Positions 25,434 through 53,403 of a stretch of 64,000 nt of DNA are shown piece by piece. The DNA comes from Dehalococcoidia bacterium (GTDB lineage: Bacteria > Chloroflexota > Dehalococcoidia > Lucifugimonadales > UBA3495). The stretch's first letter is position 1. The number at the start of each line of letters is the position of its first letter. The notes beneath the pieces are model-generated. The model worked only from the letters and a program-made list of their open reading frames with translations. It did not search any database and had not been told where the DNA came from. The stretch is from NCBI GenBank assembly GCA_965222025.1, contig CBDCTI010000010.1, forward strand, positions 250,375-314,374. Reading direction: 5' to 3'. Position numbers and translations under genes: made by a program.

Positions 25434-26683
25434 CTAAACCAAAGCCAAGGTGAAATGCGCAGACGCATAGGGTAGATTTGTGAGGTAACTGGATTAGCTG
25501 GTCTCAGGAGTTGTAGGGGTTGGTGATGAGTGTGAAGGAGATTGATCAGTTACTCGAACAGTGGGAGATGAACGTCAGGGATCTGCACCGGCGGGTGATT
25601 CTGGCGCCCACACCCAGGGAGCGGGAACGCTGGCACGCCGTCTGGCTGCTGGCCCAAGGTTGGACGGCATCGTCCACGGCGGAGGCACTGGGACGGGATC
25701 CCCACACCATAGGCCGGTGGTCCGCTGCCTTCGGCGAAGGCGGCCCAAAGGCCCTGATATTCGAGCAGACCGGGGGTTCCCCCCCGCCCTCGACGAGGCG
25801 GAGCAGGCGGCGCTGAAAGAAGCGGTGCAGGAGTTGCCAGATGCGGCGGGCATTGGTATGGCCAACTGGACCCTTCGACAAGCTCAGGAGGAGGGTGGTT
25901 CGTGAGTTCGTCGCCTTGTGGTTTGGCATCAGCCTGAGCCGCAGCAGTTGCCTGAACTACCTGCACCGGCTGGGATTCGCCTTCAAGCGTCCCAAGAAAC
26001 GTCTGTTAAAGGCGGATGAGGCCAAGCGGGAGTCATTCGTGGCGGAGTACGCCGCCCTGATGGAGGAGGCGTGTCAAAGCAACGCCAAGATATTCTTTGC
26101 TGACGAGGCCCATTTCCGTGCCGACGCCGAGTTGCGGGGCAAGTGGGTGTCGAGGGGAGAGCCGGCATTGGTGGACTCGACCAGTCCGAGGTACGGAGAA
26201 AAGGCCAGCTACTATTCGGCGGTGTGCTTGGAGACGGGGGAGGTGGAGTGGAAGGAACTGGAGGGGAACAGCAACAGCTAGACATCGGCAGCCTTCCTGG
26301 AGCAGTTGCGTGAGAGGTACTCCGGGCGTCTGAACGTGATCTGGGACAACGCGCCGGCACACCGTGGCGAAGCGGTGAGGGAGTATATCCGGACGCCAGG
26401 TCTGAACCTGCGGCTGGTGAACCTGCCAGGCTACAGCCCGGATTTCAACGCCGATGAGGCCATCTGGGGTTGGACGAGAGAGGAGACCACCGGGAACCTG
26501 TGTTTGGGAACCAGGGAGGCGGTCCATGAAAGGGTCAGCAGCTTCCTGGCCGGTCTGACCAACCGAAAGGACGAGGTGAGACGGCGCTGCCGGACCGTCC
26601 TGCAATCAAGGGCAGAAAGGCTATTGCAGGACTCCCAGCACCATCGCCAACCCCAGGCAAATGCACATCCCACCTAGTCTTTA
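25434..26683 (+). mobile_element. IS630/Tc1-mariner-like element, subtype 2, copy 1 (decayed; right IR split by IS1182)
   Basis: Left IR CTAAACCAAAGCCAAGGTGAAATGCGCA. Transposase pieces at 25520-25816, 25841-26281 and 26306-26677 have frameshifts and an in-frame TAG (26279-26281). The last bases of the right IR resume at 28342-28347. Confidence 0.8.
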
Positions 26684-29527: not shown

Positions 29528-30797
29528 CTAAACCAAAGCGAAGGTGAAACCCGCATATACGTCGGCTAGAATCAGGGAGTCATAGCGTCAGGAACGGGAG
29601 CGGGCTGAGTGAGGATGGGTATGAGGGGGATAAGGCCGGACTTGGAGCGGTGGCAGTTGGATTTGGCTGGTGTGCGCCGCAGGATGTACCTGGCGCCGAC
29701 GACGCCTCGGGAAAGAGAACGGTGGCACGCTCTGTGGCTCCTGTGCCGGGGCATGACCGCCTCTGCCACTGCCCAGGCACTGGGCCGGAATGCTCACACC
29801 ATCGGCAGATGGGCCACCGCCTTTAGCGAGGGAGATCCGGCGGCCCTGATATTCGAACAGTCCGGTGGTTCCCCCCCGCCTTCGAAGAGGCGCAGCAGGC
29901 GGCGTTGAGTGCCGCGGTGCAGGAGTTGCCCACCAAGTCGGGCATCGTAATGGCCAACTGGACCCCTCGGCAAGCTCAGGAGGAAGGTGGTGCGGCAGTT
30001 CCTCTCTGAGCGCTTCAGTATCAGCCTGAGCCGCAGCACTTGCCTGAACTATCTGCACCGTCTGGGATTCGTGCTAAAGCGCCCCAAGAAGCGTCTGCTC
30101 AAGGCTGATGCGGAGAAACGGGAGGCCTTCGTGGCGGAGTACGCCACCCTGGCATCCCAGGCTCAAGAGTCCGGGGAGAAGATATTCTTCGCCGACGAGG
30201 CTCACTTCCGTGCGGACGCCGAGTTGCGGGGCAAGTGGGTGCTGAGGGCAGAGCCAGCCTTGGTGGACTCGACCAGCTCGCGCTACGGAGAGAAGGCCAG
30301 CTACTATTCGGCGGTGTGCTTGGAGACCGTCGAGGTGGAGTGGATGGAACTGGGGGGGAACAGCAACGGAGAAAGCTCTGTGGCTTTCTTGGAACGGTTG
30401 CGGGAGAGGCAAGGCGGTCGGCTGGGCGTGATCTGGGACAATGCGCCGGCGTCCCTTCGGCAAGCTCAGGAGGGGTCCGGCGATGCGGTCATACCCGGAG
30501 ACCCCTGGCCTGAACTTGCGGTTGGTGAACCTGCCGGGCTGCAGCCCAGACTTCAACGCTGATGAGCCGGTCTGGGGCTGGGTGAGAGAGGGGGCGGCGG
30601 GGAATCCGTGTCTGGGAAGCAAGGCCCTGGTACAGCAGAGAGTCGGCAATTTCCGCTCCGGTCTGACCAGCCGGAGCGGCGAAGTAAAACGGCGCTGCCG
30701 GACCGTCCTGCAAGCAGGGGCCGAAGCACTCCTGCGAGACTCGCAGCCCGATTCCGGGCACACCCCAAATGCACATCCCACTTTGGCTTTGGTTTAG
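29528..30797 (+). mobile_element. IS630-like subtype 2, copy 2 (decayed)
   Basis: IRs CTAAACCAAAGCGAAGGTGAAAC... / ...CCCACTTTGGCTTTGGTTTAG. Transposase homology is split across 29609-29908, 29987-30562 and 30441-30797. Confidence 0.8.
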
Positions 30798-36249: not shown

Positions 36250-37230
36250 CATCTGAAGGCGGGCCGCTGCCTTCTAGTGAGGGCGGTTCCCAAGCCCTGG
36301 TGTTCGAGCAGCCCAGAGGTTCCCCCACCCTCGGCTAGGCGCAGCAGGCGGAGTTGAGGGCGGGGGTGCAAGATTTGCCGGCGGCAGCCGGCATCGGTCT
36401 GGTCAGCTGGAACTGGATAGGGCTGCATCAGTTCGTCCGGGAGCGCTTCGGCGTCAGCCTGAGCCGCAGCGGTTGCCTGAACTATCTATACCGGCTGGGG
36501 TTCGTCCTGGAGGGTCCCAAGAAGCGTCTGCTCAAGGCTGACAGGAGGAAGCGGGAGTGCTTCGCGGTGGAGTGCGCCGCCCTGACAGCGGAGGCTCGGC
36601 TCTCAGGGAACAAGATATTCTTCGCCGATGAGGCCTCCTTCCGGGCGGATGCTGAGCTTCGGGCAAGATAGGTGCTGAGAAAAGAGTCGGCGTTGGTGGA
36701 CTCCAGCAGTCGGCGTTGGGGAAAGAAGGCCAGCAACTATTCGGCGGTGTGCCTGGAGACCGGCGAGGTGGAATGGATGGAACTGGAGGGGAACAGCAAC
36801 GGAGAAAGCTCCGTGGCTTTCTTGGAACGGTTGCGTGAGAGGCACGGCGGGCGGCCGGGCGTGATCTGGGACAACGCGCCGGCGCCCCCTCGGAGGTTCA
36901 GGGGGGGGTCCGGTGATGCGGTCATACTTGGAGACCCCTGGCCTGAACCTGAGGCTGGTGAATCTGTCTGGCTACAGCCCGGACTTCAACGCTGATGAGG
37001 CGGTCTGGGGCTGGGAAAGGCAAGAGGCCACTGGGAACCAGTGCCTGGGAACCAAAGCCTTGGTGCAGCAGAGACTCACCCACTTCCTCGCCGGGCTGGC
37101 CAGCCGGAAAGACGAGGTGAAACGCCGCTGCCGGACGGTCCTGCAATCCAAGGCCGAAGCACGCCTGCGAGACTTTCAGCCGGATTCCGGGCACTCGGCA
37201 AATGCACATCCCACCTTGGCTTTAGTTTAG
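36250..37230 (+). mobile_element. IS630-like subtype 2, copy 3 (5'-truncated, decayed)
   Basis: Right IR ...CCCACCTTGGCTTTAGTTTAG ends at 37230. Transposase homology sits in 36354-36671, 36672-36995 and 36913-37230. The left IR and HTH start are missing. Confidence 0.75.
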
Positions 37231-39006: not shown

Positions 39007-40695
39007 TTAGCCCGAATCCACCGAGGGACGGCCGTGGTGTTGGAACAAGGGGTGAGGGATTTACAGGGGAGATGGCCTGGGCTCCATTGGGGTAGAGGGA
39101 GATCGGCGAACGGTCTTCAGCCCCTATGGCCGTCTGCGGGAGCTGCGATGGGTAGGAGGCGAGAGAATACGCAGGAGGGTACTCCCGCGGGCCGGGCTGG
39201 CGCGAGTTGGCGGGGACGTTGGGTCAGTTGCAGGCTGGCCGTCAGGCCGGGAGTGGAATGGCTCGCAGCCGGGCCAGGGCGCGGCTGAACTGGGTTTCCC
39301 AAGGCCAGCCCTGTGGCAGATGCAGGGTAAGGCGGCCCGCCGAGCGGGTGAGCCGTCCCGCCAGAGCGAAGAACCGCCGCCGGAGGGTCTTGGTGGTAAC
39401 CACCTGCTCACCCAGACCGATCCGCGCTGTCCAGCGAGCGAGGTTGTGGGCCAGCACCTGGACGGCAAGCCACGCAGCATTGCCGGCCAAGCGCCCCGAG
39501 GGGAGATGGTTCAGGCCGACGCCGTACTTGAGGTCTCGGATGGCATTCTCGACCTCGGCGTGGCGGCGATGGTCGGCCTCCAGTTCCAGGGTCTCCCCGT
39601 CCCGGTCGGTGATGAAGTCGTGGTAGCTGTAGCTGGCGAAGAGGGCCAGTTGAGAACCGGGCGTAGGCTTCACCCGCCGGACAATGAGCCGCACCGGCGC
39701 GGCGTCCTGCTTGGTCTGGAAGGGGGTGTAGGTCGTCTCGGCGACATCGGCTGCACCGTCCATACAGTAGGGGATGGCGTCCAGGCATCTTCAGGTATGG
39801 CCTCGATGAGATTCCGCAGGCTTTTGTGTTGGCGGATGGTGATGGAGAAGCGCAGGTCCATCTTGTGGCAGATGGATACCACGCTATGAGTGTAGAAGCC
39901 GCTGTCGGCCCGCACTGTGAGTTGCCCCTGGGCCCCGGCGTACCGTACCCGCCCCACCGTCTCCCGCAGGAAGTGGGCGGCACCTCGGGCGGTGTTGGCG
40001 CGGCTCTCGCGCAGCCGGGACATCAGCACGTCGCCGGTGCCGGCGGCGATAGCCAGCAGCGGGTGATAGCCACGGGCGCCGGTACAGCCGTGGTGTCGCG
40101 CTCCCTCCTGGGCCAGTCCATAGGTTTCGCAGATGGTGGAGTCGAGGTCGATGGTGAACGGCCCGTCGCCGGGTCCCGCCCCAGCGGTCCAGGCCCGTGC
40201 CAGCAGCTCCCGGCTCACCCGATCCAGCTGGCGCACATGGCCCCATCGGAAGCTGCGCAGGAAGGTGCCCAGGGTGGATGGAGCCTTGACCACGCAGCCG
40301 AGAATACCGGCCGTTCCACCGGCACGCGGCGCATCGGCGTCGTCGATGCAGTCGCCGCCAGCCAGCGCGGAGGCGACCATGATCATTATCTTGTCGCCGG
40401 TATTGGCCCGCCCCGCCCCGCCGCGCTACCGAGATCGAGGTGATGGTCAATGAGTTCCCCCAGGCCGAGGTGCAAGGCCAAGGTGGCCGGAAGGAGCAGT
40501 CCCGCGTTGGCCACCAAGCGGTGGCCGTCGAAGGCGATTTGGATGCGGTCGAGGTGGTTGCGTGACAGCATCAATCGAGTGCTCCTTTTCTGGGACTGTT
40601 TTGCTGTTACAAAACCATTATCCCAGATTCAGAGGAGCACCTTCTTGTTTCTTCAGAGGCCTCTCACACGCACCCCTTCGGTGGATTCGGGCTAA
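39007..40695 (-). mobile_element. IS1380-family element, copy C (decayed, opposite orientation)
   Basis: IRs TTAGCCCGAATCCACCGA / TCGGTGGATTCGGGCTAA. The transposase is split into three minus-strand ORFs (40386-40574, 39670-40386, 39242-39763), about 90% similar to copies A/B. Confidence 0.85.
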
Positions 40696-40823
40696 AAACA
40701 CCCTCATCATGGAGGTCGCCCTATGAGTCGTTTAAATCGAATTAACAGACAAACAGGCCCCCGGGCACTTGAGTGTCAGCTAATCGCAGGCAGCCGGCGG
40801 ACCCACTGCACAAGGAGAAGTCC

Positions 40824-41225: not shown

Positions 41226-42926
41226 TTAGCCCGAATCCACCGATAGAGGACGTCAGGTTAGCGACCTGAAGTGGTCAAAGGGTGCTCCTCTGAATCTGGG
41301 ATAATGGTTTTCGAGAAAGGAAACCGACCCCAGAAAAGGAGCACCCAATTGATGCTACCACGCAACCATCCCGACCGTATTCGCATCGTCTTTGACGACC
41401 ACCGTCTGGTGGCCAATGCCGGCCTGCTCCTGCCGGCCACTCTCGCCCAACACCTGGGCCTGGGGGAACTCGTAGACCATCACCTCAATCTCGGCAGCGC
41501 GCCGGGCCGGGCCAACGCCGGCGACAAGATGATGACCCTGGTCGCCTCTGCCCTGGCTGGCGGCGATTGCATCGACGACGCCGATGCGCTGCGCGCCGGT
41601 GGGACGGCCGGTGTTCTCGACTGTAGGGTCAAGGCGCCATCCACCCTGGGCACCTTCCTGCGCAGCTTCCGCTGGGGCCATGTCCGTCAGCTGGACCGGG
41701 TGATCCGGGAACTGCTGGCCCGGGCCTGGGCCGCCGGGGCGGGACCCGGCGACGCGCCGTTCACCATCGATCTGGACTCCACCATCTGCGAGACCTACGG
41801 ACTGGCCAAGGAGGGGGCGCGACACCACGGCTATACCGGCAAGCGGGGCTATCACCCGCTGTTGGCCGTGGCCGCCGGCACCGGCGACGTGTTGATGTCC
41901 CGGCTGCGCGAGGGCCGGGCCAACACTGTTCGGGGCGCCGCCCACTTCCTGCGCGAGACGGTGGGACGGGTGCGCTACGCCGGCGCCAGGGGCCGACTCA
42001 CGGTGCGGGCCGACAGCGGCTTCTATGCCCACGCCATCGTCGCCGTCTGCCGCAAGATGGATGTCCGCTACTCCATCACCATCCGCCAGCACAAAAGCCT
42101 GCGCAATCTCATCGAGGCCATACCCGAGACGGATTGGACGCCCATCCCATACTGGATGGACGGCGCCGCCGATGTGGCCGAGACCACCTACACTCCCTTT
42201 GAGAGTGAGGCCGGCGCCGCGCCGGTGCGGCTCATCGTCCGGCGTGTGAAGCCCACGCCCGGTTCCCAACTGGCCCTCTTCGCCACCTACAGCTATCACG
42301 GATTCATCACCGACCGGGACGGGGAGACCCTGGAGCTGGAGGCCGACCACCGCCGCCACGCCGAGATCGAGAACGCCATCCGGGACCTCAAGTACGGCGT
42401 CGGGCTGAACCACCTGCCGTCCGGCCGATTCGCCGCCAACGGCGCTTGGCTGGCGGTACAGGTGATGGCCCACAACCTGGCCCGCTGGACGGCCCGCATC
42501 GGCTTGCGCGAGCAGATCGTGACCACCAAGACCCTCCGGCGTCGGTTCTTCGCCCTGGCGGGACGGACCACCCGCTCGGCGCGCCGCCTCACTTTGCATC
42601 TTCCCAAGCATTGGCCCTGGGAAACCCAGTTCAGCAGCGCCCTGGCCCGGCTGCGAGCCATTCCACTCCCCGCCTGACGGCGCTGTCCGCAACCGCCCCA
42701 ACACCTCCAAACTCGCGTCCGCCCCGCCCGCGAGTGCATCCTGCTGCGTCCGATCTCACTATCACGCGATTCCCAGCCTCCATAGACCGCTCTCCAGGTC
42801 CGGTGCGGCTACTGAAAACCCTCGCGGGGTCACATCGGTCCAATGAAGCCCAGGCTTTCTCCCTTGCAGGCTCCCTCATCCCAATTTGCCCAGCATTCAC
42901 GCCTCCCATCGGTGGATTCGGGCTAA
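41226..42926 (+). mobile_element. IS1380-family insertion sequence, copy B (1701 bp), inserted into the DUF499 gene
   Basis: Same IRs and essentially the same sequence as copy A. The right end abuts the in-frame continuation of a DUF499-type ATPase. Confidence 0.9.
41352..42677 (+). CDS. IS1380-family DDE transposase (identical to 23410-24735)
   Basis: The translation is identical to the copy A transposase over the full length in the ORF track. Confidence 0.9.
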   Translation: MLPRNHPDRIRIVFDDHRLVANAGLLLPATLAQHLGLGELVDHHLNLGSAPGRANAGDKMMTLVASALAGGDCIDDADALRAGGTAGVLDCRVKAPSTLGTFLRSFRWGHVRQLDRVIRELLARAWAAGAGPGDAPFTIDLDSTICETYGLAKEGARHHGYTGKRGYHPLLAVAAGTGDVLMSRLREGRANTVRGAAHFLRETVGRVRYAGARGRLTVRADSGFYAHAIVAVCRKMDVRYSITIRQHKSLRNLIEAIPETDWTPIPYWMDGAADVAETTYTPFESEAGAAPVRLIVRRVKPTPGSQLALFATYSYHGFITDRDGETLELEADHRRHAEIENAIRDLKYGVGLNHLPSGRFAANGAWLAVQVMAHNLARWTARIGLREQIVTTKTLRRRFFALAGRTTRSARRLTLHLPKHWPWETQFSSALARLRAIPLPA

Positions 42927-45547
42927 GTGGCGGCGACGGCGCGTCGGTAACCGAGGTGCAGACTCCCTTCGGCGGCGGCAAGACCCACGCCCTGCTCACC
43001 TTCTACCACCTGATGAACAGCCCGGCGCTGGCCATGTCCGTTCCTGCCGTGCAACAGGCCCTGGGCGACGCGAGCATTCCTGCTGACGCGCGGGTGCTGG
43101 TCTTCGACGGTCAGGAGCACGGAACGGAGCCGGCGCTGAAGGAGAACGGCATCTCTGTATCCACTATGTGGGGAGAGCTAACCAGCCAGATTGACGCCGG
43201 TCTGTATAACCGTCTGATCAGGGAATGCGACGGAAAAGGGGAAGCGCCGGGCAACGCTGTCTTCGCCCAAGTACTGGAGGCGGCTGCGCCCTGCCTGATT
43301 CTTATCGACGAAGTGGTCAGTTATCTGGTAAAGCTTAATTTCTCCAATAGCCGACGCACTCAAAACCTCTACCGGCAGACGGTTCAGTTCCTGCAGGAGG
43401 CGCTGCAACTGGCCGGGAGCATTCCAGGGGTGTGCGTGCTCATCTCACTACCCAAGAGCCGGACGGAGTTTGGCGGAATAGACCCCCGGGAGCTACAGGG
43501 CGAACTGCGGATCATGGATGAGCTTCAGCCCAGGGCCGATAGGGTGGTGTCCAAGAGAACACCTGTCAACGACGACGAGGTCTACCTGCTGATGAGCCGG
43601 CGTTTGTTCAAGCGGGCTGATGCTAACGCCGCGCAGGCGGTAGCCCAGGCCTACCGGGACGTTTACGAAAGGACCCCTGGCCAATACGACGCCACCGTCC
43701 GCAGCCCCGACTACTTCAATCAGCAGGTCGCCGCCTATCCGTTCCACCCCGAGCTGATCGACGTCCTGTACAAGAAGTGGTCCACGGCGTCGGATTTCCC
43801 CCGAACCCGCGCGGTGCTGCAACTGCTGGCCAACATCGTGGCCGACCAGTGGACCAACCGCCGGGAATCCTACACCATCCAGTCGAGCCACATAGACCTG
43901 GGGCGGGAGCGCATCCGTACCCGCATCGTCAGTGCCGCCGGATCCGGTGGGGGCTATGAAGGGGTGGTTGCCTCGGACATTATCGGCGGCGACGCCCACG
44001 CCGACCACCAGGACCAGCGACGGGGAGGGGAGTACGCCCGGCACCGCATTTCGCGGGGCGTCGCCACCACCCTGCTGACCCATTCCTTCGGTGGACTGAT
44101 GCAGCCCGGCGCAGCGGCCCAAGAGCTGCGTCTGGGCACCGTCGCCCCCAACGTCGGCCTTGAATACGTCAGCGAGGTGCTGGGGAGCTTGGAGCAGTCC
44201 CTATGGTACGTTCACCGGGAAGGGGATTTGCTGAAATTCCAGACTCGCCCCAACCTCTACCGGGTCATCGCCCAGACCGCCGAGACCCGGTCGCAGCAGC
44301 AGGTGGGTGACCGTCTGAGGCAGGAACTGGAAAAGGCCTGTGGCAACGAGCCCGGCTTCCGAATTGTCGCATGGGCTGGCGCCGACGGGACTATCGCCGA
44401 CAGCCCCGATCCTACCATAGCCCTGCTGGACCCGGCGCGTTACTTGACCGCGGGCGACGTGAATGGTGTATCCGATGGCAGTGAGACCATCAAGAAGGTG
44501 TGGGACCGGGTGGGCGGCGGCCTTCGCACTTACCGTAACTCCCTGGTGCTGGTCGCCCCCGACACCGAGCTTTGGAAGAGCGCCGAAGAAGCCGTCCGCG
44601 AGGTGATGGCCTACGAAGCCGTTATGGACGGCTCCACGGCGGGCCAGCTCAGCGAGGCCGACAAAAGGGAACTGAGCAGCCGCCGTGACGACAAGCGGAA
44701 CAGCCTCACCACCAGTATTGTCACCGCCTACCGCTGGGTCTTCTACCCAGGAGACCAGACCCTGGAAACAGGGTCCCTGCCCGTGCCGGCCACCTCCAGA
44801 GAGAAGATTGCCGGCCGGGTCATTCGCCGACTGTCCGACCAAGACTATGGAACGCCGAAGATACTGCGTCGCATGAGCGCAGTGTACTTCAACTCCAGGT
44901 TTAGTCCTCGCCTCTGGCGGGACGAGTCGAACGCCTTGGACTTATCCGAGGCAGCCCGCCGGTTCCCTCAGTGGACGTTCCTGCCCATCCTTCCTGACCG
45001 CGAAGAGACTCTCCGGAACTGCATCCGCGAGGGGGTGAGCCAAAACTTGTGGGCCGTAGTTGTCGGCGACAACGCAACCTCGACCTATCAGCAGCTCAAA
45101 GACACGCCCGAGGCCCTGGATCAAATGGTGTCCCTGTTCGACGGCTCGGCGTCGCTCGTGAAGGGAGACCTGCTTCAGCTCATACGGGAGGAACTGCGTC
45201 CAGCGGCTGGGCCGGAGACGCCGAATGTTCCCCACGAGCATGGGGTTGCGCCAGATAATTCCATCTATGAGGAGCAGCCCACTCCGCCGGAACCTCCGCC
45301 GGTGATTCCGCCTCCGGCCAAACGCCTGACCAGGGTACGCCTGAACGTCAACAATCTCGACGTGTCCAAGACCAGTAACCTCCAGCCCTACCTGTTCAAG
45401 TTGCTCCAGGAACAGGATGCCGGAGCCCGAGTCAACGTGACCATCGAAGTATCCAGCACGTCCGGTATCTCCCAAGACATCCTGAATCAGCGGATTGTCG
45501 AGGGTTTCGATCAACTCGGAATAGAGGTGAAGTGGGAAGAGGGATAG
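42927..45547 (+). pseudogene. DUF499-type P-loop ATPase (BrxC/PglY-like class), 5'-truncated by IS1380
   Basis: About 873 codons. Walker A FGGGKTHAL lies right after the junction (42968-42988), followed by Walker B-like CLILIDEV. The hallmark AAYPFHPELIDVLYKKW...FPRTRAVLQLLANIV matches my recollection of DUF499. The tracked ORF (42446-45547) begins with IS-derived sequence. Confidence 0.7.
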
Positions 45548-46003
45548 GTTATATCTTCCTGTGCTGGAAAATGCTGCACGCTGAGGGGAAACCGGGCGTC
45601 ATGGCCGACAAGACCAGCAGCTGACTGGGCCTTATGCGTTTGGTTTGCTGCCAAATCCCCCATGCCACGCTGGACGCCGCCGCGTCGTCGCCCTTGATAA
45701 AAAAGGGGGCAGCAGGCAGATTAACTTTGAACCGAACCAAGATATCGGAACACTCGCCATAGACGTTGGACCTGCCTTGCCCCCAATGTGGCGAGCAGAA
45801 CGGCAGGGCGCACATCGTGGCGGTCTGCTGCCTCGCGCCCTACCTTGTGAGGCGATTGCTCGGCCTCAGATTGTCAGGCCTCAAGGATGTAGTGGGTTGC
45901 CGGAGAAAGGACAGTCGTTGTAGAGTATCGTGGCGGGTTGATAGTTGAAAATGGCCAAGGCCGTCGCTGGTTGGTTCAAATCGGCTTATGGACGATAACA
46001 ATC

Positions 46004-49000
46004 ATGAAATTAATGCTTCTGCACCTGAGTGATATCCACATTACTAGCGAAGACAATAGCATAACGCAGAAATATCCCTACATCGTTGATGCTGTCAAAA
46101 ATCTTGACTATGAACTTGACATGTGTGTAGTCATGGTTACAGGCGACATCGCTTATTCTGGCCAAGAATACCAGTATTAAATTGCAATGGACGTCTTGGA
46201 GAACATTAAAGAAGGTCTGTCAAACAATTTTGCAAGAGTCTCAAATGATCCAGTGCCCGTCCACATAGTTGTGGTTCCCGGTAATCACGACTGTGATTTT
46301 CAAATATCCGGAGAGCTAAGAGAGCTCATACTACCAACCGTGCTTGCGGATCATACAAAAGCAAGTTCTTCAGAAATTGTGGAATTATGTACAGCTGTTC
46401 AACTATGCTTTTTCCAATTTCGAGAGGCCGTTGAGTCCGCGCCGGCCGAAGCAGCCAGTTTGAATTTTGACCACAAGCTGGCCTATCGATACAAGTTTGA
46501 GTTTGGAGCTCATAGTATCCTGTTTCTTTGTTACAACACGGCTTGGTTATCCCAACTGAACGAAAGCCAAGGACGCTTATACTTCCCGGCCGACGCGGTC
46601 GTTGCTGACCAGGGCGAATGTGAGTTAGTTGTGGCAGCTTTCCATCATCCATACAATTGGATTGAATCAAATTCAGCCCGCTTATTCCGTGAGCGAGTAG
46701 AATCTGTTGCAGATATCATTCTCACAGGCCATGAGCATGTTTCTTCGCGGAGGACTCAAGAGGGCGATCGGCATCAGAACAATACTTATGTGGAGGGAGG
46801 TGTATTGCAGGACACTAAGGCATCTGATCTTAGTGAATTCAACGTGTTCATATTTGACACCGAACTCCAACGGCATAAGTTCGCGAGTTTTGGTTGGGAG
46901 GGGCAAGAATACTCCTTGACCGATAGATCCATGCTAGGAGATGAAGCTGGAGGATTAGGCTGGAAAGAATATCAGGAGAATCAAGCACGACCGTCGAGGC
47001 GGTTTCGGATGTCGGAGGGAATGAGGCACATCTTAGAAGACCCCGGAATCAGTCTTGTACATCAAAAGAAAGGAAATCTTGAGCTCAGAGACATCTTTTT
47101 GTACCCGGAGCTGCTTCAAATGCGGACTCGAGAGGATATGTTTGGTCGACGAATTGCTGGAAACGCAATCATAGACCTATTGGATTCTCAATCGCTGATT
47201 ATGATTACAGGCGATACAGAGTCCGGCAAAACATGCATGGCTAAGACATTATTCTGTGATCTAATGGATGTTGGTCTCACTCCCATTTTCATAGATGGGT
47301 CTCGCAGGATACCGACTGGGGATAGTATTTATGGACATATCGAAAGGTTATTTGAAGAGCAATTCAATTCTCTACAATTGGATGCCTATCGGCAGCTAAA
47401 TAAATCCTCAAAAGCGATTATTGTGAATGATTTTGATAAACTGGACCAAACGCCTCTTCAAAGGGAGAATTTGCTAGACCGATTGGCTTCGTATGCCAGT
47501 AGCGTTATTATATTCGCCAATGATATGGCCTCAGATGTAAATGACCTGACAAACCCTGGAAGTTTTCAAAACCCGTTCGGAGAAGTTCAACATTACAGGA
47601 TTCAGCCTTTAGGATTTGTGAGTCGGAATAAACTGGTGGAGCGTTGGATGTTGCTCGGAGAGGGAAGCGATTCCAATGACTTGACATTTGTTCAAAACTT
47701 GAATCGACGAAACGAAATTATTAATACTATAGTTGGAAGGAATTACGTTCCATCGTATCCGGTTTATGTGCTGGCTGTCCTCCAGGCACTTGATACGGCT
47801 ACGCCTATCGATATCAACGCCAGCACTCACGGATACTTTTATGAGTTGTTCATTAGAACTTCACTTGCACGCGGAAGGTCCAATATAGATTTCGACATTA
47901 TTGCGTCCTACCTGGCTTGTGTAGCTCGCCAGTTTCAATTGCAGGGTGTCAAAATTGTAGAGGAGTCGGCGTTTCGTCGCATCCATGATGACTTTCAGGA
48001 GCAATATGACATCAGAAGGCCTTATGAATCCATCAAACAGCAACTGATAAATCAAAATATCTTGGTTTCTATCAATGATGGGATAGCATTCAGATACAGT
48101 TACCTATACAACTATTTCGTTGCAAGTTACCTTAAGGACCATATATATGAGAGTTATGTACAAGAGACCATCGCAAGAATGAGCCAGGAAGTGCACATTG
48201 AAACCAACGCCAATATTTTACTGTTCCTCGCCCATTTGTCCAAAGACCCCACTGTAATAGGCGAACTCCTGCAAGCCGCTAAGGCTAGATTTTCCCAACA
48301 TAGCCCTATGACTTTGGACGCTGATGTTAAGTTTTTGGAGGGCTTGGGTATAAGCTTACCCGATGTGGTTTATGAGGACCGGGATACAAGGGTGAATCGG
48401 GAGGCGGTGTTGGCTAAATTTGACCAAGCTAGTCCGCCAGACGACGGAGGCATCGATATTGCTTCTAACGAATGTGAGACACAGGTTGACGTAGATAATC
48501 CTGTGATACAATTGCAATCTGCGATTCGGCACTTGGATATTCTTGGGCAGATTCTCAAAAACTTCCCTGGCTCTCTCGAGGGATATGTGAAATTGGAGAT
48601 TGCCAGAGAATGCTACCAATTGGGTCTTAGATCGTTGTCAGTGATATTTGAGATTATAGAATCGGAACAGACGGAAATTCTCAAGCAAATTGCAGATATT
48701 ATAAAAGATCACAATCCTCTTTTTACTGCTTTGGAGACTGAGAACAGAGCCCGTGAAACATTGATGGGAATGACACACGTGGTAAGCTACGGTATGATTT
48801 GGCGTGTTTCAAGAGCCGTTGGGTCTCGTGATCTTTTTAACACCTTCGAAAGACTGATGAAAGAATCTGACAGTGCGGCATACAAACTCATCAACAGCGC
48901 ACTAGAGATAGACAACAGGCAAAAATGTCCAGAACTTGCAATTCGGCGAGCTGTTAGAGAATTCAAAGATGACCTTTTGCCTTTGTCAGTACTGCGACAC

Positions 49001-49153
49001 TTGGTGGTATCCCATTTTCAACTCTTCCCTGTGGAATACACAACAAAAAAGAGCATATGCGACATTATGGGTATATCTTATTCTAGGTTGTACCGATCGA
49101 CGCCAGTACCCGAAATGCTTCCTGCTGCTAGAACCGGAATGCAACCTGATTAA
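46004..49153 (+). CDS. calcineurin-like metallophosphoesterase fused to a P-loop (STAND/NACHT-like) NTPase, interrupted by an in-frame TAA at 46178-46180
   Basis: ORFs 45938-46180 and 46187-49153 are in the same frame. All five phosphoesterase motifs are present: LHLSDIH, GDIAYSG, PGNHD, AAFHHP, GHEH. Walker A GDTESGKT lies at 47211-47234, with Walker B-like AIIVNDFD and a long helical C-terminal region. The gene is AT-rich relative to its flanks. Confidence 0.7.
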
Positions 49154-49695
49154 TTGTCAAGGCTGCAAGTTACTGAGGATGTAGAATGCGGAGGTAAATT
49201 GGACCCGTGGGGGGATTGATTAGCTGACTGCGATAATATGTCTTTGCCATCTCGGCTTTGGTCTGTCCCAATTGTTGACTGGTGAGCGACGACAATTAGT
49301 CCGGCCGAGCCTCGCAGATTATTCTTTCCAGTTCACCTTCCGTTACTGACTCCTCTGTCCCCAACAGGCTGAGAAAAATGGCCGTGCCAGACACTTTGGT
49401 TTACCGCGTGGCGGCGGGAGAACCCGCAACCGCACACGGCACTCTGGGGCGTGACTAATTTACACCCTCTTGATTCGCCATCCGTCTAATCCCAGCCGTC
49501 CTTGAAGGCATTCGTCGGCAGCGCCTCCACTTCCTCAACCTTAATGACCCGGCGGACCGGCGATTCTGACGCTCCCTGGCCCTGGGCAATTTGGGCCAGG
49601 GACATGCCCAGCTCCTTGCTCATCCGGTGTATGGGATGGTCAACTACAATTAGTCTTGCCAGCTTGTTGCCTCTCCAGAGAATGTTACCGAAAGT

Positions 49696-50330
49696 CTAGC
49701 CCCTATTTCCCACCCTAACCAAGACTAATTCCACCTCCTCGCTCCGTTCCGATGCAGGCTCATCGGAAGCAGTGTAGACCAGCCTCTTGGTCATGACGCC
49801 GCGCCAGTCCTTCACCCTGCGCTGCAGGGTCCGCAGCTGGGCGTCGCTGAACCGCCCTCGATGGGCTGCCCGAAGCCTTGCCAGCAGTTCTTTGGCGTTG
49901 GTGGCGGGGTTTTTCTGCAACCAAAGCAGCACGTCGCACCAAACGCCTTCGAAGGGGTCCTTCCGGGTACGCCAGTCCCGGGGCGGGCAAACTCGCGCCT
50001 TGTGAGTGGGTCGTGCTTCCCCCTGTTGCCACAGGCTGGACAGGCGAGCCAGAAACCGGTCCGTCGGGGGCTATGTGTGCCCTCCCTGGATGCCCAGGCG
50101 ACATTTGGGAGCATTCGGCATCTCGTGAGATACGGAAGAGGAACATCGCCAAGAGAAGAGCATCCACCGGGTCCGGGGACGGCTGGCTCGAGAGGAAGGT
50201 GGCTTGGCTATGTGCGGCTATTGAGGGTATGCGCCGTGTACCTTGAGGAACGCCTTTTCGGGCCAGCATGTGCGAGGCGTTCGGCAATCCGATGCCCCGC
50301 TGTGGCCATGACGCCGGTTCATCGCCGCAT
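49696..50330 (-). pseudogene. DDE (rve-type) transposase C-terminal remnant
   Basis: The 78-aa ORF LLWLQKNPATNAKELLARLRAAHRGRFSDAQLRTLQRRVKDWRG matches a tail I recall from rve-type transposases. Upstream homology (…RTRKDPFEGVW…) is in another frame, and no intact ORF remains. Confidence 0.5.
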
Positions 50331-50356
50331 CATCAGTTGACAGCTGAATTCAGAGG

Positions 50357-51430
50357 TCACCTCAACTGGATGAGCAAGGACCCGGCAGGGTGTCCGAAGT
50401 GTTCTACCACCCGCCGGGCGCGCCCGGCGATCAGGATCCCTGTCCCATGGCAGGAGGCGAAAATGCCCGTGTCCCCGATGGGCCGGGACACGTTCAGTTC
50501 CCCGGCTGCCCTGGAATAGTAGGGCAGTTTCCTGCCCCGTATTTCCAGAATTCTCTCGAAGTCCCCGGGGTGGCTGTCGCGCATCATCAGGCAGACCCCC
50601 ACCAGCAGGCCGGACCAGGACGTGACATCCCTTGTTTCAGAATCCAGGGTGAAGGAGGCCGGTGTTGAGCGGAGGCCCCTGCCGGGGCCGGATCCTGCGG
50701 CGTCCTCGGTGCCCGGTGCCAGCAGCGCGGCGCGGTTCTCCGCCAGCACCCGGCGGACCAGCCGGTTGTCGGGACGGTGGCCGGCCCTCTGTTCTGCAGC
50801 GGTGGCGACCAGTTCGATCAGACCCTCGTCAAGACCGCCGACCACCTGTCGCCAGCCTTGGATTACGGCCCGCCGGTCCACCGCATTCTGGTTACTGTCC
50901 CGCAGCTCCCTTTCCGCCGACCTGGCGGCCTGCCCGTTGCACACCCTGTCCCTGGTCAGGTACCGGTTGATGTTCGCCGCCGCGGCCTCCGGGTCTCCCC
51001 TGAGGTTGATTTCACAGAAGCGACTTTCCATCCGGCCGCCGCCGGGCGACCACAGGAATAGCAGCCAGCGCAGTCCGTTGGTCAGCGCCGCCAGGGATAC
51101 CTCCTCCCTGGCGCAGAGGGCCAGCAGTTGCCGCTCCATCCGGGGACTCTCGATGTTATCGGTCGGCGTTCTCACGTCAATGAACACCCTGGGCGAGACT
51201 GCTCCTTTGGGCTGGCCTGGCGGCATCAGGGCGAAGTCGATGCTTCTGTTACCGGTGATGTATCCCGGCATCACCTGCAAGAGATCGAAGACGTCCCACC
51301 CGGCGGCGGCCAGCAGTCTCAGCACAACGGCCTGCGCGATGGCCGCCTTGGTCCGCCCCTCCAGTGAGGGCATGTCTCTTATCCCGGAAACCGCCTGGGA
51401 AATGGACTCCCTGTAATCGGCTCTCAGCAT
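50357..51430 (-). CDS. hypothetical protein with HsdR-N-like / PD-(D/E)xK-like N-terminal domain
   Basis: 357 aa. The N-terminal K.AIAQAVVLRLLAAAGWDV......GNRSIDFAL....PRVFIDVRTP follows the spacing of type I restriction enzyme R N-terminal domains, with R replacing the usual K. The C-terminal half is unrecognised. Confidence 0.4.
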   Translation of the reverse strand: MLRADYRESISQAVSGIRDMPSLEGRTKAAIAQAVVLRLLAAAGWDVFDLLQVMPGYITGNRSIDFALMPPGQPKGAVSPRVFIDVRTPTDNIESPRMERQLLALCAREEVSLAALTNGLRWLLFLWSPGGGRMESRFCEINLRGDPEAAAANINRYLTRDRVCNGQAARSAERELRDSNQNAVDRRAVIQGWRQVVGGLDEGLIELVATAAEQRAGHRPDNRLVRRVLAENRAALLAPGTEDAAGSGPGRGLRSTPASFTLDSETRDVTSWSGLLVGVCLMMRDSHPGDFERILEIRGRKLPYYSRAAGELNVSRPIGDTGIFASCHGTGILIAGRARRVVEHFGHPAGSLLIQLR

Positions 51431-51714
51431 CTGATGGATTCTCTTGTCTGATCGAAGGGTTGGGCAACGGGAGCGCGGTTTTTAATTTCCGTTATTGAGG
51501 GTTGTATGAGTGCGTAGCGGAAACTTCCCGAGCTTAATATAGGCTTGCCGGCGTTCTGCTGCATAGGCACAGCAACGGAGTGGGTATCGGACGGAGTCCG
51601 ATTATCGGCCTTGCCAGTTCGGCGTTCACCGCGGGCGTGGCAGTGGCAGTCCCCATGGTGCCTCCCTCTCCCTCGAGGGAGAATGAAAAGGCCCTGTTGC
51701 CATGCGGGGGTTCC

Positions 51715-51751: not shown

Positions 51752-51826
51752 AGGCTCGTAGCTCAGTGGTAGAGCAGCCGGCTCATAACCGGCTGGTGGC
51801 TGGTTCGATCCCAGCCGGGCCCACCA
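51752..51826 (+). tRNA. tRNA with CAT anticodon (elongator Met or Ile2), CCA encoded
   Basis: Cloverleaf read by eye. D-arm GCTC-AGTGGTA-GAGC. Anticodon arm GCCGG-CTCATAA-CCGGC with the anticodon at 51784-51786. T-arm GCTGG-TTCGATC-CCAGC. Acceptor AGGCTCG/CGGGCCC has an A1:C72 mismatch and a U5:G68 wobble. It lacks the initiator GGG/CCC stem. Confidence 0.85.
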
Positions 51827-53403
51827 TGACGTACCGAATTCATAACACCCCCGTTTAGGGCGATCTCCACGGCGTCCGCACCCCCTGCCGGAGAGTCGTC
51901 CGGCGTCGGTATCGAGTAGACGATAGCGGCCCTGCCGGGCTTGACCACGATCTCCTTGACGAAGGACCTCACGAAAGCCTTGGTCTCGGTCAGTTCGCTG
52001 GTCTTGAGGAAATCGCTCATATCGGCGGCGAAGGCGGCGATGGTGTCGGCGCTGTCCAGGAACTGACGCCGGTCCGACAGAAGCGCCCGCGCCTCCTCGG
52101 CGGCGATCTCCAGCTTCTCCTTGCGCTCCCGGTGCTCCCTGATGCGCTCCGAGGCGTCGGCCATTTCGATGTCGGTGGTCTCGATGACCTGCCAGATGCG
52201 GCCCAGCCGCTTCTTCACGTCCTCCAGCTCTTCTTCGATGGTCTCCAGCCGCTCCCGCTGCTCGCGGGCCACCCCGTCCATCTCCTCGTCCAGCAGCTTC
52301 ACCAGATCGCGGATGTTGGACTCGGTGAGCACGTTCTCCCTGATCTCGCTGACGATGAGCTTCTCGAAACTCTTGGCGTTGAGCCTGGGGGTCTCGCAGG
52401 TTCCCTTGCCCCGCTTCAAAAGGGAGTGGCAGATGTAGTAGGTGTACCTGCCGCTCTTGGCCTCGGCGGCGGTCATGGCCTTGCCGCAGGTCTCGCACTT
52501 GACCAGGCCGCTGAGCAGGTAGGGGCTGGAAGCCCGGCGGGGGTTCATCTTCTTCGGGGCGCGGGACGCCAGCAACTTCCTGGCTTTCTGGAAATCCCGC
52601 TTGGATACAATGGCGGGATGCGCGTCCTCGACGCGCACCGGCGGCGCGCCGTCCTTGGCTTTTGCTCCCCAGACCAAAGTGCCGGTGTAGGCTTCGTTGT
52701 CCAGCATGGTGTGGATGGTGGTCTTGAGCCACTTCTTGCCGTTGGTGGTGGGGATGCCCTCTGAGTTGAGGGTCTTGGTCACGTCGAGGATGCTCTTGCC
52801 CTGGAGCACCATGTCGAAGATGCGCCGGACCACGGCGTCGGCGGGCGGGTTGAGCTCCAGCTTGGGGCGCTTCTTGATTCCGTCCTGAACGTAGACCCGC
52901 TTGTAGCCGTAGGGGGCGTAGGTGGTCATCCAGAAGCCGCGAGTGGCGGCCTCGCGCATCCCCCGGAGAACCTCTTGCGCAAGATTCTCGCTATAGAACT
53001 CGTCCACGCTCTCGATGATGGCCTCAAGGAGCTTGCCGGTGGGGGTGTCGTCGGCCTGCTCGGTGATGGAGACGACCCGGACGCCCCTGCGCCGCAGCAT
53101 GGACTTGAAGGCCACGGCGTGCTCGCGCTTTCTGGTGAAGCGGGAGAATTTCCAGACCAGGATTTCCTTGAAAGGGGCCTCGGGCTTGCTGGCCTCGTCC
53201 AGCATCCGGCTGAACTGGGGCCGGTCGGCGATGCGGCCGCTCTCGGCCTCGTCCACGTACTCGCGGGCTACCAGGTAGCCGTTCCGCTGGGCGTAGTCGC
53301 GCAGCGCCCGAAGCTGGGCGGCCACGGACAGGTCCACGTCCTGTCGGTCGCTGGAGACCCGGGCGTAGAGGGCTGCCGGTATCAGGTCGTGTAGTTCAGT
53401 CAT
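51763..53403 (-). CDS. large serine recombinase (integrase)
   Basis: 546 aa. Resolvase catalytic domain (ALYARVSSDRQD...), recombinase domain, zinc ribbon (CETCGKAM...YYICHS) and coiled-coil. The last about 21 codons run antisense through the tRNA gene. Confidence 0.9.
   Translation of the reverse strand: MTELHDLIPAALYARVSSDRQDVDLSVAAQLRALRDYAQRNGYLVAREYVDEAESGRIADRPQFSRMLDEASKPEAPFKEILVWKFSRFTRKREHAVAFKSMLRRRGVRVVSITEQADDTPTGKLLEAIIESVDEFYSENLAQEVLRGMREAATRGFWMTTYAPYGYKRVYVQDGIKKRPKLELNPPADAVVRRIFDMVLQGKSILDVTKTLNSEGIPTTNGKKWLKTTIHTMLDNEAYTGTLVWGAKAKDGAPPVRVEDAHPAIVSKRDFQKARKLLASRAPKKMNPRRASSPYLLSGLVKCETCGKAMTAAEAKSGRYTYYICHSLLKRGKGTCETPRLNAKSFEKLIVSEIRENVLTESNIRDLVKLLDEEMDGVAREQRERLETIEEELEDVKKRLGRIWQVIETTDIEMADASERIREHRERKEKLEIAAEEARALLSDRRQFLDSADTIAAFAADMSDFLKTSELTETKAFVRSFVKEIVVKPGRAAIVYSIPTPDDSPAGGADAVEIALNGGVMNSVRHGGPGWDRTSHQPVMSRLLYH

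What the first reader, a model, noticed from the sequence alone, without database searches (positions are those of the whole stretch)
45930..49330. AT-rich islet encoding a metallophosphoesterase-P-loop NTPase fusion (effector-NTPase-sensor layout) broken by a single in-frame TAA
The composition changes sharply. The flanks are GC-rich, while about 3.4 kb here is AT-rich, with codons dominated by A/T third positions, which argues for recent horizontal acquisition. One 1,050-codon frame (46004-49153) encodes all five calcineurin-like phosphoesterase motifs: LHLSDIH, GDIAYSG, PGNHD, AAFHHP and GHEH. These are followed by a P-loop NTPase (GDTESGKT at 47211-47234; AIIVNDFD) and about 500 aa of helical sequence. 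That order of N-terminal enzymatic effector, central NTPase and C-terminal helical array is the architecture of STAND/NLR-like antiphage proteins (Avs, bNACHT). I do not recognise this particular phosphoesterase fusion as a named defence system. It sits between a DUF499 ATPase remnant and an HsdR-N-like gene, next to a tRNA and an integrase, which is typical defence-island context. The frame is cut by one TAA (46178-46180) between motifs II and III. The gene is therefore a very recent pseudogene, a sequencing/assembly error, or expressed as a split protein.
Basis: partly seen in the sequence, partly recalled or inferred. Interest (0 to 1): 0.72.

Follow-up and report, generated by a model that had tools for sequence, protein, structure and literature searches.

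The report
Broken copy of DS-8 antiphage gene
This AT-rich stretch is a copy of DS-8, an already described and tested single-gene phage-defence protein, that has been knocked out by a stop codon inside a decaying defence island, so it is a tidy but ordinary case.

Summary
Window 46004-49153 (+) is one 1,050-codon frame cut by a single TAA at 46178-46180. Its GC is 0.44, against about 0.63 in the flanks.

The repaired protein is a full-length, above-cutoff match to the NCBIfam equivalog NF053861 "DS8_antiphage" (929.9 bits, cutoff 790). It also matches PADLOC candidate PDC-S60. DS-8 is a single-protein system (metallophosphatase plus NACHT-like NTPase) validated in E. coli (DefensePredictor, Science 2026). 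The layout is therefore real but already named.

An intact allele (P0121, locus L002) lies on a collinear contig that is 97.6% identical. It reads TTA (Leu59) where the window reads TAA. The window lineage also changed the family-invariant Walker B aspartate (D475N) and carries 12 derived amino-acid changes, against 1-2 in the sister lineage.

The neighbouring HmaC/DUF499 gene is cut off at about codon 250 by a 1,701-bp IS, and the rest of that operon is absent.

Low GC is a family-wide trait (41 of 41 loci), not evidence of an especially recent transfer.

Verdict: a pseudogenised new member of a known family in a probable Chloroflexota genome. Interest is low. Sequencing error at the stop cannot be excluded without reads.

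The parts
46004..46180 (+). 5' fragment of the DS-8 gene: codons 1-58 plus the premature TAA. It holds metallophosphatase motifs I (LHLSDIH) and II (GDIAYSG).
   Evidence: Translation. Family-invariant residues G47 and D48, and near-invariant D10 and H12.
46178..46180 (+). Premature stop codon TAA. The intact allele has TTA (Leu59), so this is a single T>A change at 46179.
   Evidence: Ungapped comparison with L002. Polarised as derived in the window using L001, which has CTG Leu. Leu is the commonest residue at this column, 28 of 65.
46187..49153 (+). The 988-aa ORF left downstream of the stop (protein P0001 in public databases). It lacks motifs I and II.
46004..46903 (+). Calcineurin-like metallophosphatase (effector) domain, aa 1 to ~300.
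   Evidence: Pfam PF00149 at 39.9 bits, cutoff 21.5, aa 5-246. Foldseek hits to YydB, GpdQ, Lmo2642, SMPDL3B, Rv0805 and purple acid phosphatases.
47210..47233 (+). Walker A / P-loop GDTESGKT (aa 403-410, with K409).
   Evidence: G408 is invariant and K409 is conserved in >=90% of the family.
47414..47437 (+). Walker B strand AIIVNDFD (aa 471-478). Codon 475 (47426-47428) is AAT (Asn) where every other family member has Asp.
   Evidence: D475 is present in 65 of 65 other homologs plus P0121. The change is derived in the window.
47957..48121 (+). nSTAND_NTPase4 signature region (aa 652-706), downstream of the NTPase core.
   Evidence: Pfam PF24406 at 39.3 bits, cutoff 27.
48131..49150 (+). C-terminal all-helical region (aa ~710-1049), the presumed sensor.
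   Evidence: AF2 model of the intact allele has helices through aa 717-1022 with pLDDT mostly 85-95. The region is conserved together with the NTPase in TIR-fused relatives.
42927..45547 (+). 5'-truncated HmaC/DUF499 ATPase gene, the remnant of a neighbouring Hma-type defence operon. It starts at about codon 250-256 of the 1,123-aa intact gene.
   Evidence: PADLOC HmaC 2.6e-102, profile positions 69-935 of 941. tblastn shows L002 HmaC aa 256-1124 matching the window, and no match for the upstream L002 genes.
41226..42926 (+). 1,701-bp insertion sequence (DDE_Tnp_1_4 transposase). Its right end abuts the truncated HmaC.
   Evidence: 99.94% identical to the copy at 23284-24984. Pfam PF13701 at 9e-59. 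Terminal inverted repeats seen.
49696..49932 (-). 78-aa transposase fragment (Y4rL_C type) in the GC-rich spacer downstream of DS-8.
   Evidence: The same ORF in L002 is labelled PF27155 and is 100% identical at protein level. A full-length Y4rL_C/rve/Mu-transposase gene is seen in L090.

Best explanation
The islet is a horizontally mobile, single-gene antiphage cassette of the DS-8 family (also PADLOC PDC-S60), and in this genome it has been inactivated.

How the intact protein most likely works (inferred from the family, from the mutant data for E. coli DS-8, and from other STAND/NLR-type defence proteins): the helical C-terminal region senses a phage cue. The central NACHT-like STAND NTPase binds nucleotide and drives oligomerisation. 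This switches on the N-terminal binuclear metallophosphatase, which hydrolyses a phosphodiester substrate that has not yet been identified. By fold, this is more likely a nucleotide or small phosphodiester than DNA ends.

In the window, a T>A change turned Leu59 (TTA) into TAA. This separates metal-binding motifs I and II from the rest of the enzyme. The Mg-coordinating Walker B aspartate has also become asparagine. The gene is therefore a recent pseudogene. It lies in a defence island that is eroding as a whole, because an IS has also truncated the neighbouring Hma-type system.
For: Identity:
- NCBIfam NF053861 DS8_antiphage (equivalog), 929.9 bits against a cutoff of 790, covering profile positions 1-994 of 994.
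- PADLOC PDC-S60, 1.3e-91 and 1e-23.
- Pfam Metallophos and nSTAND_NTPase4, both above cutoff.
- DS-8 was validated, with D52A, N84A and K375A mutants abolishing defence.

Fold: AF2 model of the intact allele has pLDDT 85.3. Foldseek finds NLRC4, NLRP3, NAIP and Avs4 for the NTPase. For the N-terminal domain it finds YydB, GpdQ, SMPDL3B, Rv0805 and purple acid phosphatases.

Effector modularity: the same NTPase plus C-terminus is fused to TIR on plasmids, with 27% identity over 733 aa and E=2e-59. That TIR protein also matches PDC-S60.

Pseudogene:
- The intact allele P0121 lies on a collinear contig that is 97.6% identical with no gaps over 7,661 nt, and it reads TTA where the window reads TAA.
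- The window branch has 12 derived nonsynonymous and 14 synonymous changes. The sister branch has 1-2 and 12. The dN/dS ratio is about 0.24 against about 0.05.
- D475N hits a residue that is invariant in 66 of 66 other sequences.
- The absence of any indel over 7.6 kb argues against a sloppy assembly.

Island decay: the IS at 41226-42926 abuts HmaC at about codon 250, and the helicase, methylase and AAA_15/DUF3226 genes of L002 are absent.
Against: - No reads are available, so a substitution error at 46179 cannot be excluded.
- The asymmetry in nonsynonymous changes is only suggestive: Fisher p is 0.03-0.18, depending on how the ambiguous sites are assigned.
- The activation mechanism is inferred from homologs, and no DS-8 substrate or trigger is known.
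- The strict NACHT Walker B signature D[GAS]hDE is not present. The family has DD[YF][HD]K.
- I could not retrieve the E. coli DS-8 sequence. The mapping of D52, N84 and K375 onto D48, N94 and K409 therefore rests on motif identity, not on a pairwise alignment.
Confidence: 0.8

Rival explanations
1. The TAA is a sequencing or assembly error (or a minority variant fixed by the assembler), and the organism carries an intact, working DS-8 gene.
For: It is a single-base substitution. The source is evidently a metagenome-assembled contig: cluster-mates come from ENA metagenome assemblies, some at low coverage such as '7x'. A nearly identical intact allele exists in nature.
Against: - The same allele carries D475N at a family-invariant Walker B residue, and 10 further derived amino-acid changes.
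- There are no indels over 7.6 kb relative to L002, so the assembly looks clean.
- The adjacent defence operon is independently destroyed by an IS, which fits relaxed selection on the whole island.
Confidence: 0.12
2. The gene is expressed as two polypeptides, aa 1-58 and the 988-aa product restarted at ATG 46187 (six bases after the stop). These reassemble into an active split metallophosphatase-NTPase.
For: An ATG lies two codons after the stop, so translational re-initiation is physically plausible. The break falls in a helix (aa 55-75) after the second beta strand, not inside a strand.
Against: - No other family member among the 120 listed is split at this point. Shorter entries sit on short contigs or are unrelated truncations.
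- No Shine-Dalgarno-like sequence precedes 46187.
- The intact allele in the sister strain shows that the split is very recent.
- D475N would still compromise the NTPase.
Confidence: 0.04
3. The 988-aa product is made and retained for a new role, for example as an effector-dead sensor that acts as a regulator or as a dominant-negative brake on a second copy.
For: The long ORF remains open for 988 codons after the stop. The window branch still shows dN/dS below 1, about 0.24.
Against: - A dN/dS below 1 is expected if most of the branch predates the nonsense mutation.
- There is no second DS-8 copy in the 64-kb window: the tblastn and BLAST comparisons found only this locus.
- The Walker B aspartate is lost, and there is no precedent for this in the family.
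Confidence: 0.04

Closest known systems
DS-8 (E. coli WP_032203427.1; NCBIfam NF053861 'DS8_antiphage'; DefensePredictor, Science 2026, PMC13092281)
   Same: Single polypeptide of about 1,000-1,050 aa with an N-terminal metallophosphatase, a central NACHT-like P-loop NTPase and a helical C-terminus. It gives a full-length HMM match above the curated equivalog cutoff. The catalytic Asp and Asn and the Walker A Lys that were shown to be essential in DS-8 are conserved as D48, N94 and K409.
   Different: It comes from a high-GC, probably Chloroflexota, genome rather than E. coli, and no DNA-level similarity to E. coli genomes was found. The gene is interrupted by a stop at codon 59 and carries D475N in Walker B, so it is most likely non-functional.
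PADLOC candidate PDC-S60 (models PDLC05050 and PDLC05051)
   Same: Same NTPase plus C-terminal chassis. PDLC05050 matches aa 336-1027 at 1.3e-91, and PDLC05051 matches aa 5-507 at 1e-23.
   Different: The best-scoring model (PDLC05050) fits TIR-headed relatives end to end, as in the Vibrio plasmid protein. Here the head is a metallophosphatase. PDC-S60 was a computational candidate only.
Avs / bNACHT / eukaryotic NLR STAND immune receptors
   Same: Tripartite logic of effector, NTPase and sensor. The structure resembles NLRC4, NLRP3, NAIP and Avs4. The effector is swappable.
   Different: There are no PADLOC Avs or bNACHT model hits. Pfam NACHT (PF05729) does not hit this protein. The Walker B signature is DD[YF][HD]K rather than D[GAS]hDE. 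Pfam places it in the 'novel STAND' families nSTAND4 and nSTAND3.
Phosphodiesterase-type metallophosphatases (GpdQ, Rv0805, SMPDL3A/B, purple acid phosphatase) and B. subtilis YydB / DS-9A
   Same: Same binuclear-metal fold and motifs. The top Foldseek hit is YydB (1e-13), followed by GpdQ, Lmo2642, SMPDL3B and Rv0805. There is a weak NCBIfam hit to DS9_1.
   Different: Those are stand-alone enzymes or parts of two-gene systems. Here the domain is fused to a STAND NTPase. The substrate is unknown, and Mre11/SbcD nucleases score only marginally (TIGR00619, E=0.001).

Membership tests
DS-8 antiphage protein (NCBIfam NF053861, equivalog) | Full-length match to the family HMM above the curated cutoff | tested here: met
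   929.9 bits against a cutoff of 790. Aa 7-1024 align to profile positions 1-994 of 994, using the frame with the stop masked.
DS-8 antiphage protein (NCBIfam NF053861, equivalog) | Metallophosphatase catalytic residues (E. coli D52 and N84, essential for defence) present | tested here: met
   D48 (GD motif) and N94 (GNHD motif) are present and invariant in the family. The correspondence to D52 and N84 is by motif, not by direct alignment.
DS-8 antiphage protein (NCBIfam NF053861, equivalog) | Walker A lysine (E. coli K375, essential for defence) present | tested here: met
   GDTESGKT with K409. The residue is conserved in >=90% of the family.
DS-8 antiphage protein (NCBIfam NF053861, equivalog) | Uninterrupted ORF encoding effector, NTPase and C-terminus on one chain | tested here: not met
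   TAA at codon 59. The intact allele P0121 has Leu. It is therefore a pseudogene member of the family.
DS-8 antiphage protein (NCBIfam NF053861, equivalog) | Walker B aspartate, invariant in the family | tested here: not met
   N475 in the window, against D in 66 of 66 other sequences.
DS-8 antiphage protein (NCBIfam NF053861, equivalog) | Single-gene system with no conserved partner gene | tested here: met
   Seven neighbourhoods share no common neighbour. Local tblastn of window neighbours against all fetched loci hits only the sister contig L002.
DS-8 antiphage protein (NCBIfam NF053861, equivalog) | Protects against phage | not testable with these tools
   Shown only for the E. coli protein.
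PADLOC PDC-S60 | Match to PDC-S60 HMMs | tested here: met
   PDLC05050 at 1.3e-91 and PDLC05051 at 9.9e-24.
NACHT clade of STAND NTPases (strict sense) | Walker B signature D[GAS]hDE (Kibby et al. 2022 preprint) | tested here: not met
   The family consensus is DDYHK. The intact allele has DDFDK and the window has NDFDK.
NACHT clade of STAND NTPases (strict sense) | Pfam NACHT (PF05729) match | tested here: not met
   There is no PF05729 hit for this protein at E<=0.1. A few distant family members do carry a precomputed PF05729 hit.
STAND NTPases (broad sense) | P-loop NTPase followed by helical/winged-helix extension, with fold similarity to NLR/Avs NTPase modules | tested here: met
   nSTAND_NTPase4 is above cutoff and nSTAND3 is below it. 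Foldseek hits NLRC4 at 2e-9, NLRP3 at 3e-8 and Avs4 at 4e-7.
Avs (AVAST) systems | Match to Avs family models | tested here: not met
   No Avs model appears among the PADLOC hits at E<=0.1. The only link is structural resemblance to Avs4.
Calcineurin-like metallophosphoesterases (Pfam PF00149) | Five metal-binding motifs and an HMM match above cutoff | tested here: met
   39.9 bits against a cutoff of 21.5. The motifs are at aa 6-12, 47-53, 92-96, 211-216 and 242-245.
Hma system (neighbouring gene 42927-45547) | Helicase, methylase and ATPase genes all present | tested here: not met
   Only the C-terminal ~870 aa of HmaC remain. The helicase, DUF1156 methylase and AAA_15/DUF3226 genes present in L002 have no tblastn match in the window.

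The most novel reading that the evidence does not exclude
The interruption is tolerated or even used. Translation re-initiates at ATG 46187, giving a 58-aa piece carrying metal-binding motifs I and II and a 988-aa piece. These either reassemble into a working split enzyme or provide an effector-dead, Walker-B-altered sensor with a regulatory role. That would be a naturally split STAND immune receptor.
Probability: 0.04. Interest if true: 0.5.

Novelty: new member of a known kind. Interest (0 to 1): 0.2.

Why it matters
Mostly as a correct annotation. This ORF is deposited as a 988-aa hypothetical protein, and it should be labelled a DS-8-family pseudogene.

There is modest added value in four points:
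- It shows DS-8 in a probable Chloroflexota host, with an intact and a broken allele 1.4% apart. That gives a natural loss-of-function pair (L59stop and D475N) for anyone testing non-E. coli DS-8 proteins.
- The DS-8 NTPase/sensor chassis is documented with a TIR head on plasmids, which ties DS-8 to PADLOC PDC-S60.
- Low GC relative to the host is universal for this family.
- It illustrates the erosion of a defence island, with a nonsense mutation in one system and an IS-mediated truncation in its neighbour.

None of this changes what is known about how such systems work.

Tried and rejected
- **DNA search in E. coli genomes.** I searched all complete E. coli genomes with the islet and with an Enterobacterales homolog, hoping to reach the validated DS-8 gene for a direct alignment. 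There was no match in either case. The residue mapping to D52, N84 and K375 therefore rests on motifs.
- **Exact-match metagenome scan.** A scan of JGI metagenomes for the TTA or TAA allele found nothing.
- **Look-up of the window's own contig.** Look-ups via the 988-aa and 357-aa products failed, as they are not on record.
- **Sequence-only PDB search.** A search with the family profile gave only weak RecA, ClpX and GpdQ hits. The fold search was needed.
- **Phage records.** They hold no homolog.
- **Literature.** Searches for PDC-S60 and for metallophosphoesterase plus NACHT plus phage defence found nothing beyond DefensePredictor and the bNACHT preprint.
- **Mre11/SbcD-type nuclease effector: rejected as the first choice.** SbcD scores only E=0.001, and the fold hits are phosphodiesterases and phosphatases.
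- **Stop-codon reassignment: rejected.** The gene itself ends in TAA.
- **Functional link between DS-8 and the 357-aa downstream gene or HmaC: rejected.** Neither neighbour recurs next to other DS-8 homologs.
Full report
**1. Observation**

The frame 46004-49153 (+) is 1,050 codons long with a single internal stop, TAA at 46178-46180. The ORF caller therefore reports an 80-aa ORF ending at 46180 and a 988-aa ORF starting at ATG 46187.

The five calcineurin-type motifs, the P-loop GDTESGKT (47210-47233) and the AIIVNDFD strand are all present.

GC is 0.40-0.48 across about 45950-49300 and 0.60-0.65 on both sides. GC3 is 0.44, against 0.77 in the adjacent gene.

**2. Identity**

With the stop masked, the protein matches the following:
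- NCBIfam NF053861 'DS8_antiphage' (equivalog) at 929.9 bits, cutoff 790, end to end over profile positions 1-994 of 994.
- PADLOC PDC-S60, with PDLC05050 at 1.3e-91 over aa 336-1027 and PDLC05051 at 1e-23 over aa 5-507.
- Pfam Metallophos (aa 5-246) and nSTAND_NTPase4 (aa 652-706), both above their cutoffs. nSTAND3 and AAA_22 fall below cutoff at the P-loop.

DS-8 is one of 42 systems validated in E. coli by the DefensePredictor study. It is a single protein with a metallophosphatase homologous to human SMPDL3A and a NACHT domain. Mutating two metallophosphatase catalytic residues (D52A, N84A) or the NTPase lysine (K375A) abolished defence. The substrate is unknown (PMC13092281).

**3. Structure**

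An AlphaFold2 model of the natural intact allele, built with a 66-sequence alignment, has mean pLDDT 85.3. It shows three parts:
- an alpha/beta sandwich domain at aa 1 to ~305;
- a P-loop alpha/beta domain at aa ~385-535;
- an almost entirely helical remainder up to aa 1022.

Foldseek against the PDB gave two groups of hits. For the N-terminal domain it found B. subtilis YydB (1e-13), GpdQ (1e-7), Lmo2642, SMPDL3B (1e-6), Rv0805 (2e-6) and purple acid phosphatases. For the NTPase it found NLRC4 (2e-9), NLRP3, NAIP, NLRP9, Avs4 (4e-7) and ORC/Cdc6.

The effector therefore groups with phosphodiesterase and phosphatase-type metallophosphatases rather than with Mre11/SbcD nucleases. SbcD scores only E=0.001.

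By the strict motif definition of NACHT (D[GAS]hDE after the Walker B strand; Kibby et al. preprint), this family does not qualify. It has DD[YF][HD]K. 'NACHT-like novel STAND' is the accurate label.

**4. Modularity**

tblastn against plasmids found full-length metallophosphatase-headed homologs, for example on Clostridium botulinum plasmids. It also found proteins that match only aa ~310-1020 and are annotated as TIR proteins.

One of these, from a Vibrio parahaemolyticus plasmid, has the following properties:
- TIR_2 plus nSTAND_NTPase4 domains;
- a PDC-S60 match at 9.4e-97;
- 27% identity to the intact allele over 733 aa, E=2e-59.

The N-terminal domain is thus an exchangeable effector on a conserved NTPase/sensor chassis. 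This supports the effector-NTPase-sensor logic by comparative evidence, not only by analogy.

**5. The stop codon**

The 90%-identity cluster of the window's 988-aa product contains an intact 1,049-aa protein, P0121. Its contig (L002) is collinear with window 42921-50581 at 97.6% identity, with no gaps over 7,661 nt. At the stop it reads TTA (Leu), so the lesion is one T>A change at 46179.

I used a 77%-identical homolog (P0002, L001) as an outgroup to polarise the differences:

| Lineage | Derived amino-acid changes | Synonymous changes | dN/dS |
|---|---|---|---|
| Window | 12 (including the stop) | 14 | ~0.24 |
| L002 | 1-2 | 12 | ~0.05 |

Fisher p is 0.03-0.18, depending on the ambiguous sites, so this is suggestive rather than decisive.

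One derived change, D475N, replaces the Walker B aspartate, which is Asp in all 66 other aligned sequences. F975C hits a position that is Phe in 56 of 65.

The 988-aa product lacks D10, H12 and D48. Because the D52A mutant of DS-8 is dead, this product should be catalytically inactive.

I conclude that this is a genuine recent pseudogene, at about 0.8 confidence. A base-call error remains possible at about 0.12, because reads are not available.

**6. Context**

*Upstream.* ORF 42446-45547 matches PADLOC HmaC (2.6e-102) from profile position 69 onward. Its first ~160 codons are read-through from a 1,701-bp IS at 41226-42926. That IS is 99.94% identical to a copy at 23284-24984 and encodes a DDE_Tnp_1_4 transposase.

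In L002 the HmaC gene is 1,123 aa (HEPN_Swt1 plus DUF499). It is preceded by a DUF1156 methylase, an AAA_15/DUF3226 pair and an SNF2/NOV_C helicase. None of these has a match in the window. The neighbouring system is therefore destroyed as well.

*Downstream.* There is a Y4rL_C transposase fragment at 49696-49932 (-). Next comes a 357-aa gene with no detectable family. It is an independent ~1.4-kb cassette that occurs in eight other contigs without DS-8. Beyond it lie tRNA-Met (51752-51826) and a large serine recombinase.

*Host.* The host is probably Chloroflexota. A cluster-mate of a window protein at >=90% identity carries that name. The nearest genome homologs of the DS-8 gene are Dehalococcoidia MAGs at 50-54% identity.

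**7. Distribution and composition**

There are 811 database proteins at E<=1e-10 and 355 loci among GTDB species representatives, spread across many phyla.

The gene is GC-poorer than its flanks in 41 of 41 loci, with a mean difference of -0.118. This includes the relatives at 50-77% identity in other high-GC hosts. Low GC is therefore a property of the family, consistent with habitual horizontal movement. It does not date this particular acquisition, which predates the split from the L002 strain.

Similarity to the 77% homolog covers only 45949-49134. The mobile unit is essentially the gene plus about 55 bp upstream.

Neighbourhoods are mixed:
- About four of seven lie in defence or mobile islands. 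These hold Hma; a ubiquitin-like Bil-type operon with PemK and IS21; Type ISP restriction; and IS21/HNH/Mrr/PIN.
- Three of seven are solitary insertions between housekeeping genes, often beside toxin-antitoxin pairs.

**8. Mechanism**

Shown:
- family membership;
- the fold of each module;
- effector swapping;
- the essentiality of the metallophosphatase and P-loop residues in the E. coli protein (from the literature);
- the lesions in this allele.

Inferred:
- the C-terminal helical region senses a phage cue;
- nucleotide-dependent oligomerisation activates the metallophosphatase;
- the substrate is a small phosphodiester or nucleotide rather than DNA ends;
- the window allele is non-functional.

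**9. Verdict**

This is a new, pseudogenised member of a known and experimentally validated family, in an eroding defence island. It is not a new kind of system. Interest is 0.2.

Noticed in passing
window 23284-24984, 41226-42926, and inverted diverged copy 39169-40696: Two copies of a 1,701-bp IS are 99.94% identical. They encode a DDE_Tnp_1_4 transposase and have terminal inverted repeats TTAGCCCGAATCCACCGAT / ATCGGTGGATTCGGGCTAA. A third copy is 84% identical and inverted. The near-identity suggests recent transposition. One copy truncates HmaC.
   Followed up: partly
window 25605-26660, 29697-30768, 36322-37201: Three copies of a ~1-kb repeat are 70-83% identical to one another. They lie next to a DDE_Tnp_1_6/DUF772 transposase gene (26746-28281). 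The region upstream of the island is dense in IS relics.
   Followed up: no
window 42921-50581 vs L002: Divergence from the sister contig is mosaic: 0-0.4% over 42921-43900, 6-7% over 43900-45400 (the C-terminal half of HmaC), 1-2% across DS-8, and rising again after 50200. Synonymous divergence of HmaC (0.108) is 2.6 times that of DS-8 (0.041), with p=3e-6. This suggests a recombination tract or a hypervariable segment in HmaC.
   Followed up: partly
window 50259-51666 (ORF 50357-51430, minus strand): A 357-aa protein with no Pfam, PADLOC or NCBIfam hit. It sits in a discrete ~1.4-kb cassette that recurs at 87.8% DNA identity in eight other metagenome contigs in a different context (PIN/PhdYeFM, ammonium transporter, IS630-type elements). 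It may be a mobile gene of unknown function.
   Followed up: partly
window 51752-51826 (+) and 51763-53403 (-): The 3' end of the large serine recombinase ORF overlaps tRNA-Met by about 64 nt on the opposite strand. If the tRNA is an attachment site, the recombinase's element would lie to the right of the tRNA. In that case the DS-8/Hma island would lie outside it.
   Followed up: no
L096 3566-6187 (Vibrio parahaemolyticus plasmid NZ_CP034287.1); also Streptococcus and Lactococcus plasmids: TIR-headed relatives share the DS-8 NTPase and C-terminal module and are the best fit to PADLOC PDC-S60 model PDLC05050. DS-8 and PDC-S60 therefore appear to be effector variants of one chassis.
   Followed up: yes
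L083 14163-17905: In a Dehalococcoidia genome, the DS-8 homolog sits next to a gene pair encoding an HATPase_c_3 protein (773 aa) and a separate 474-aa metallophosphatase. A Type ISP restriction enzyme and a 1,715-aa DEAD/UvrD helicase are also nearby. The pair may be another metallophosphatase-based defence system, similar in size to DS-9A and YydB.
   Followed up: no
window 8324-9889 and 9988-11535: Tandem paralogous genes, about 78% identical at DNA level. A >=90% identical cluster-mate is named mycofactocin system GMC oxidoreductase MftG [Chloroflexota bacterium]. This is the main clue to the host's phylum.
   Followed up: partly
window 61055-63985 (-): A 976-aa ORF that contains several ~300-nt internal direct repeats, 79-89% identical (61362-62914). 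It looks like a repetitive protein and was not examined.
   Followed up: no
L001 234-3673: The 77%-identical DS-8 homolog lies beside an operon with ThiF (E1-like), Prok-E2_E, Multi_ubiq and BubE genes, plus a PemK toxin, integrase fragments and IS21. This is a different defence-island setting from the window.
   Followed up: no
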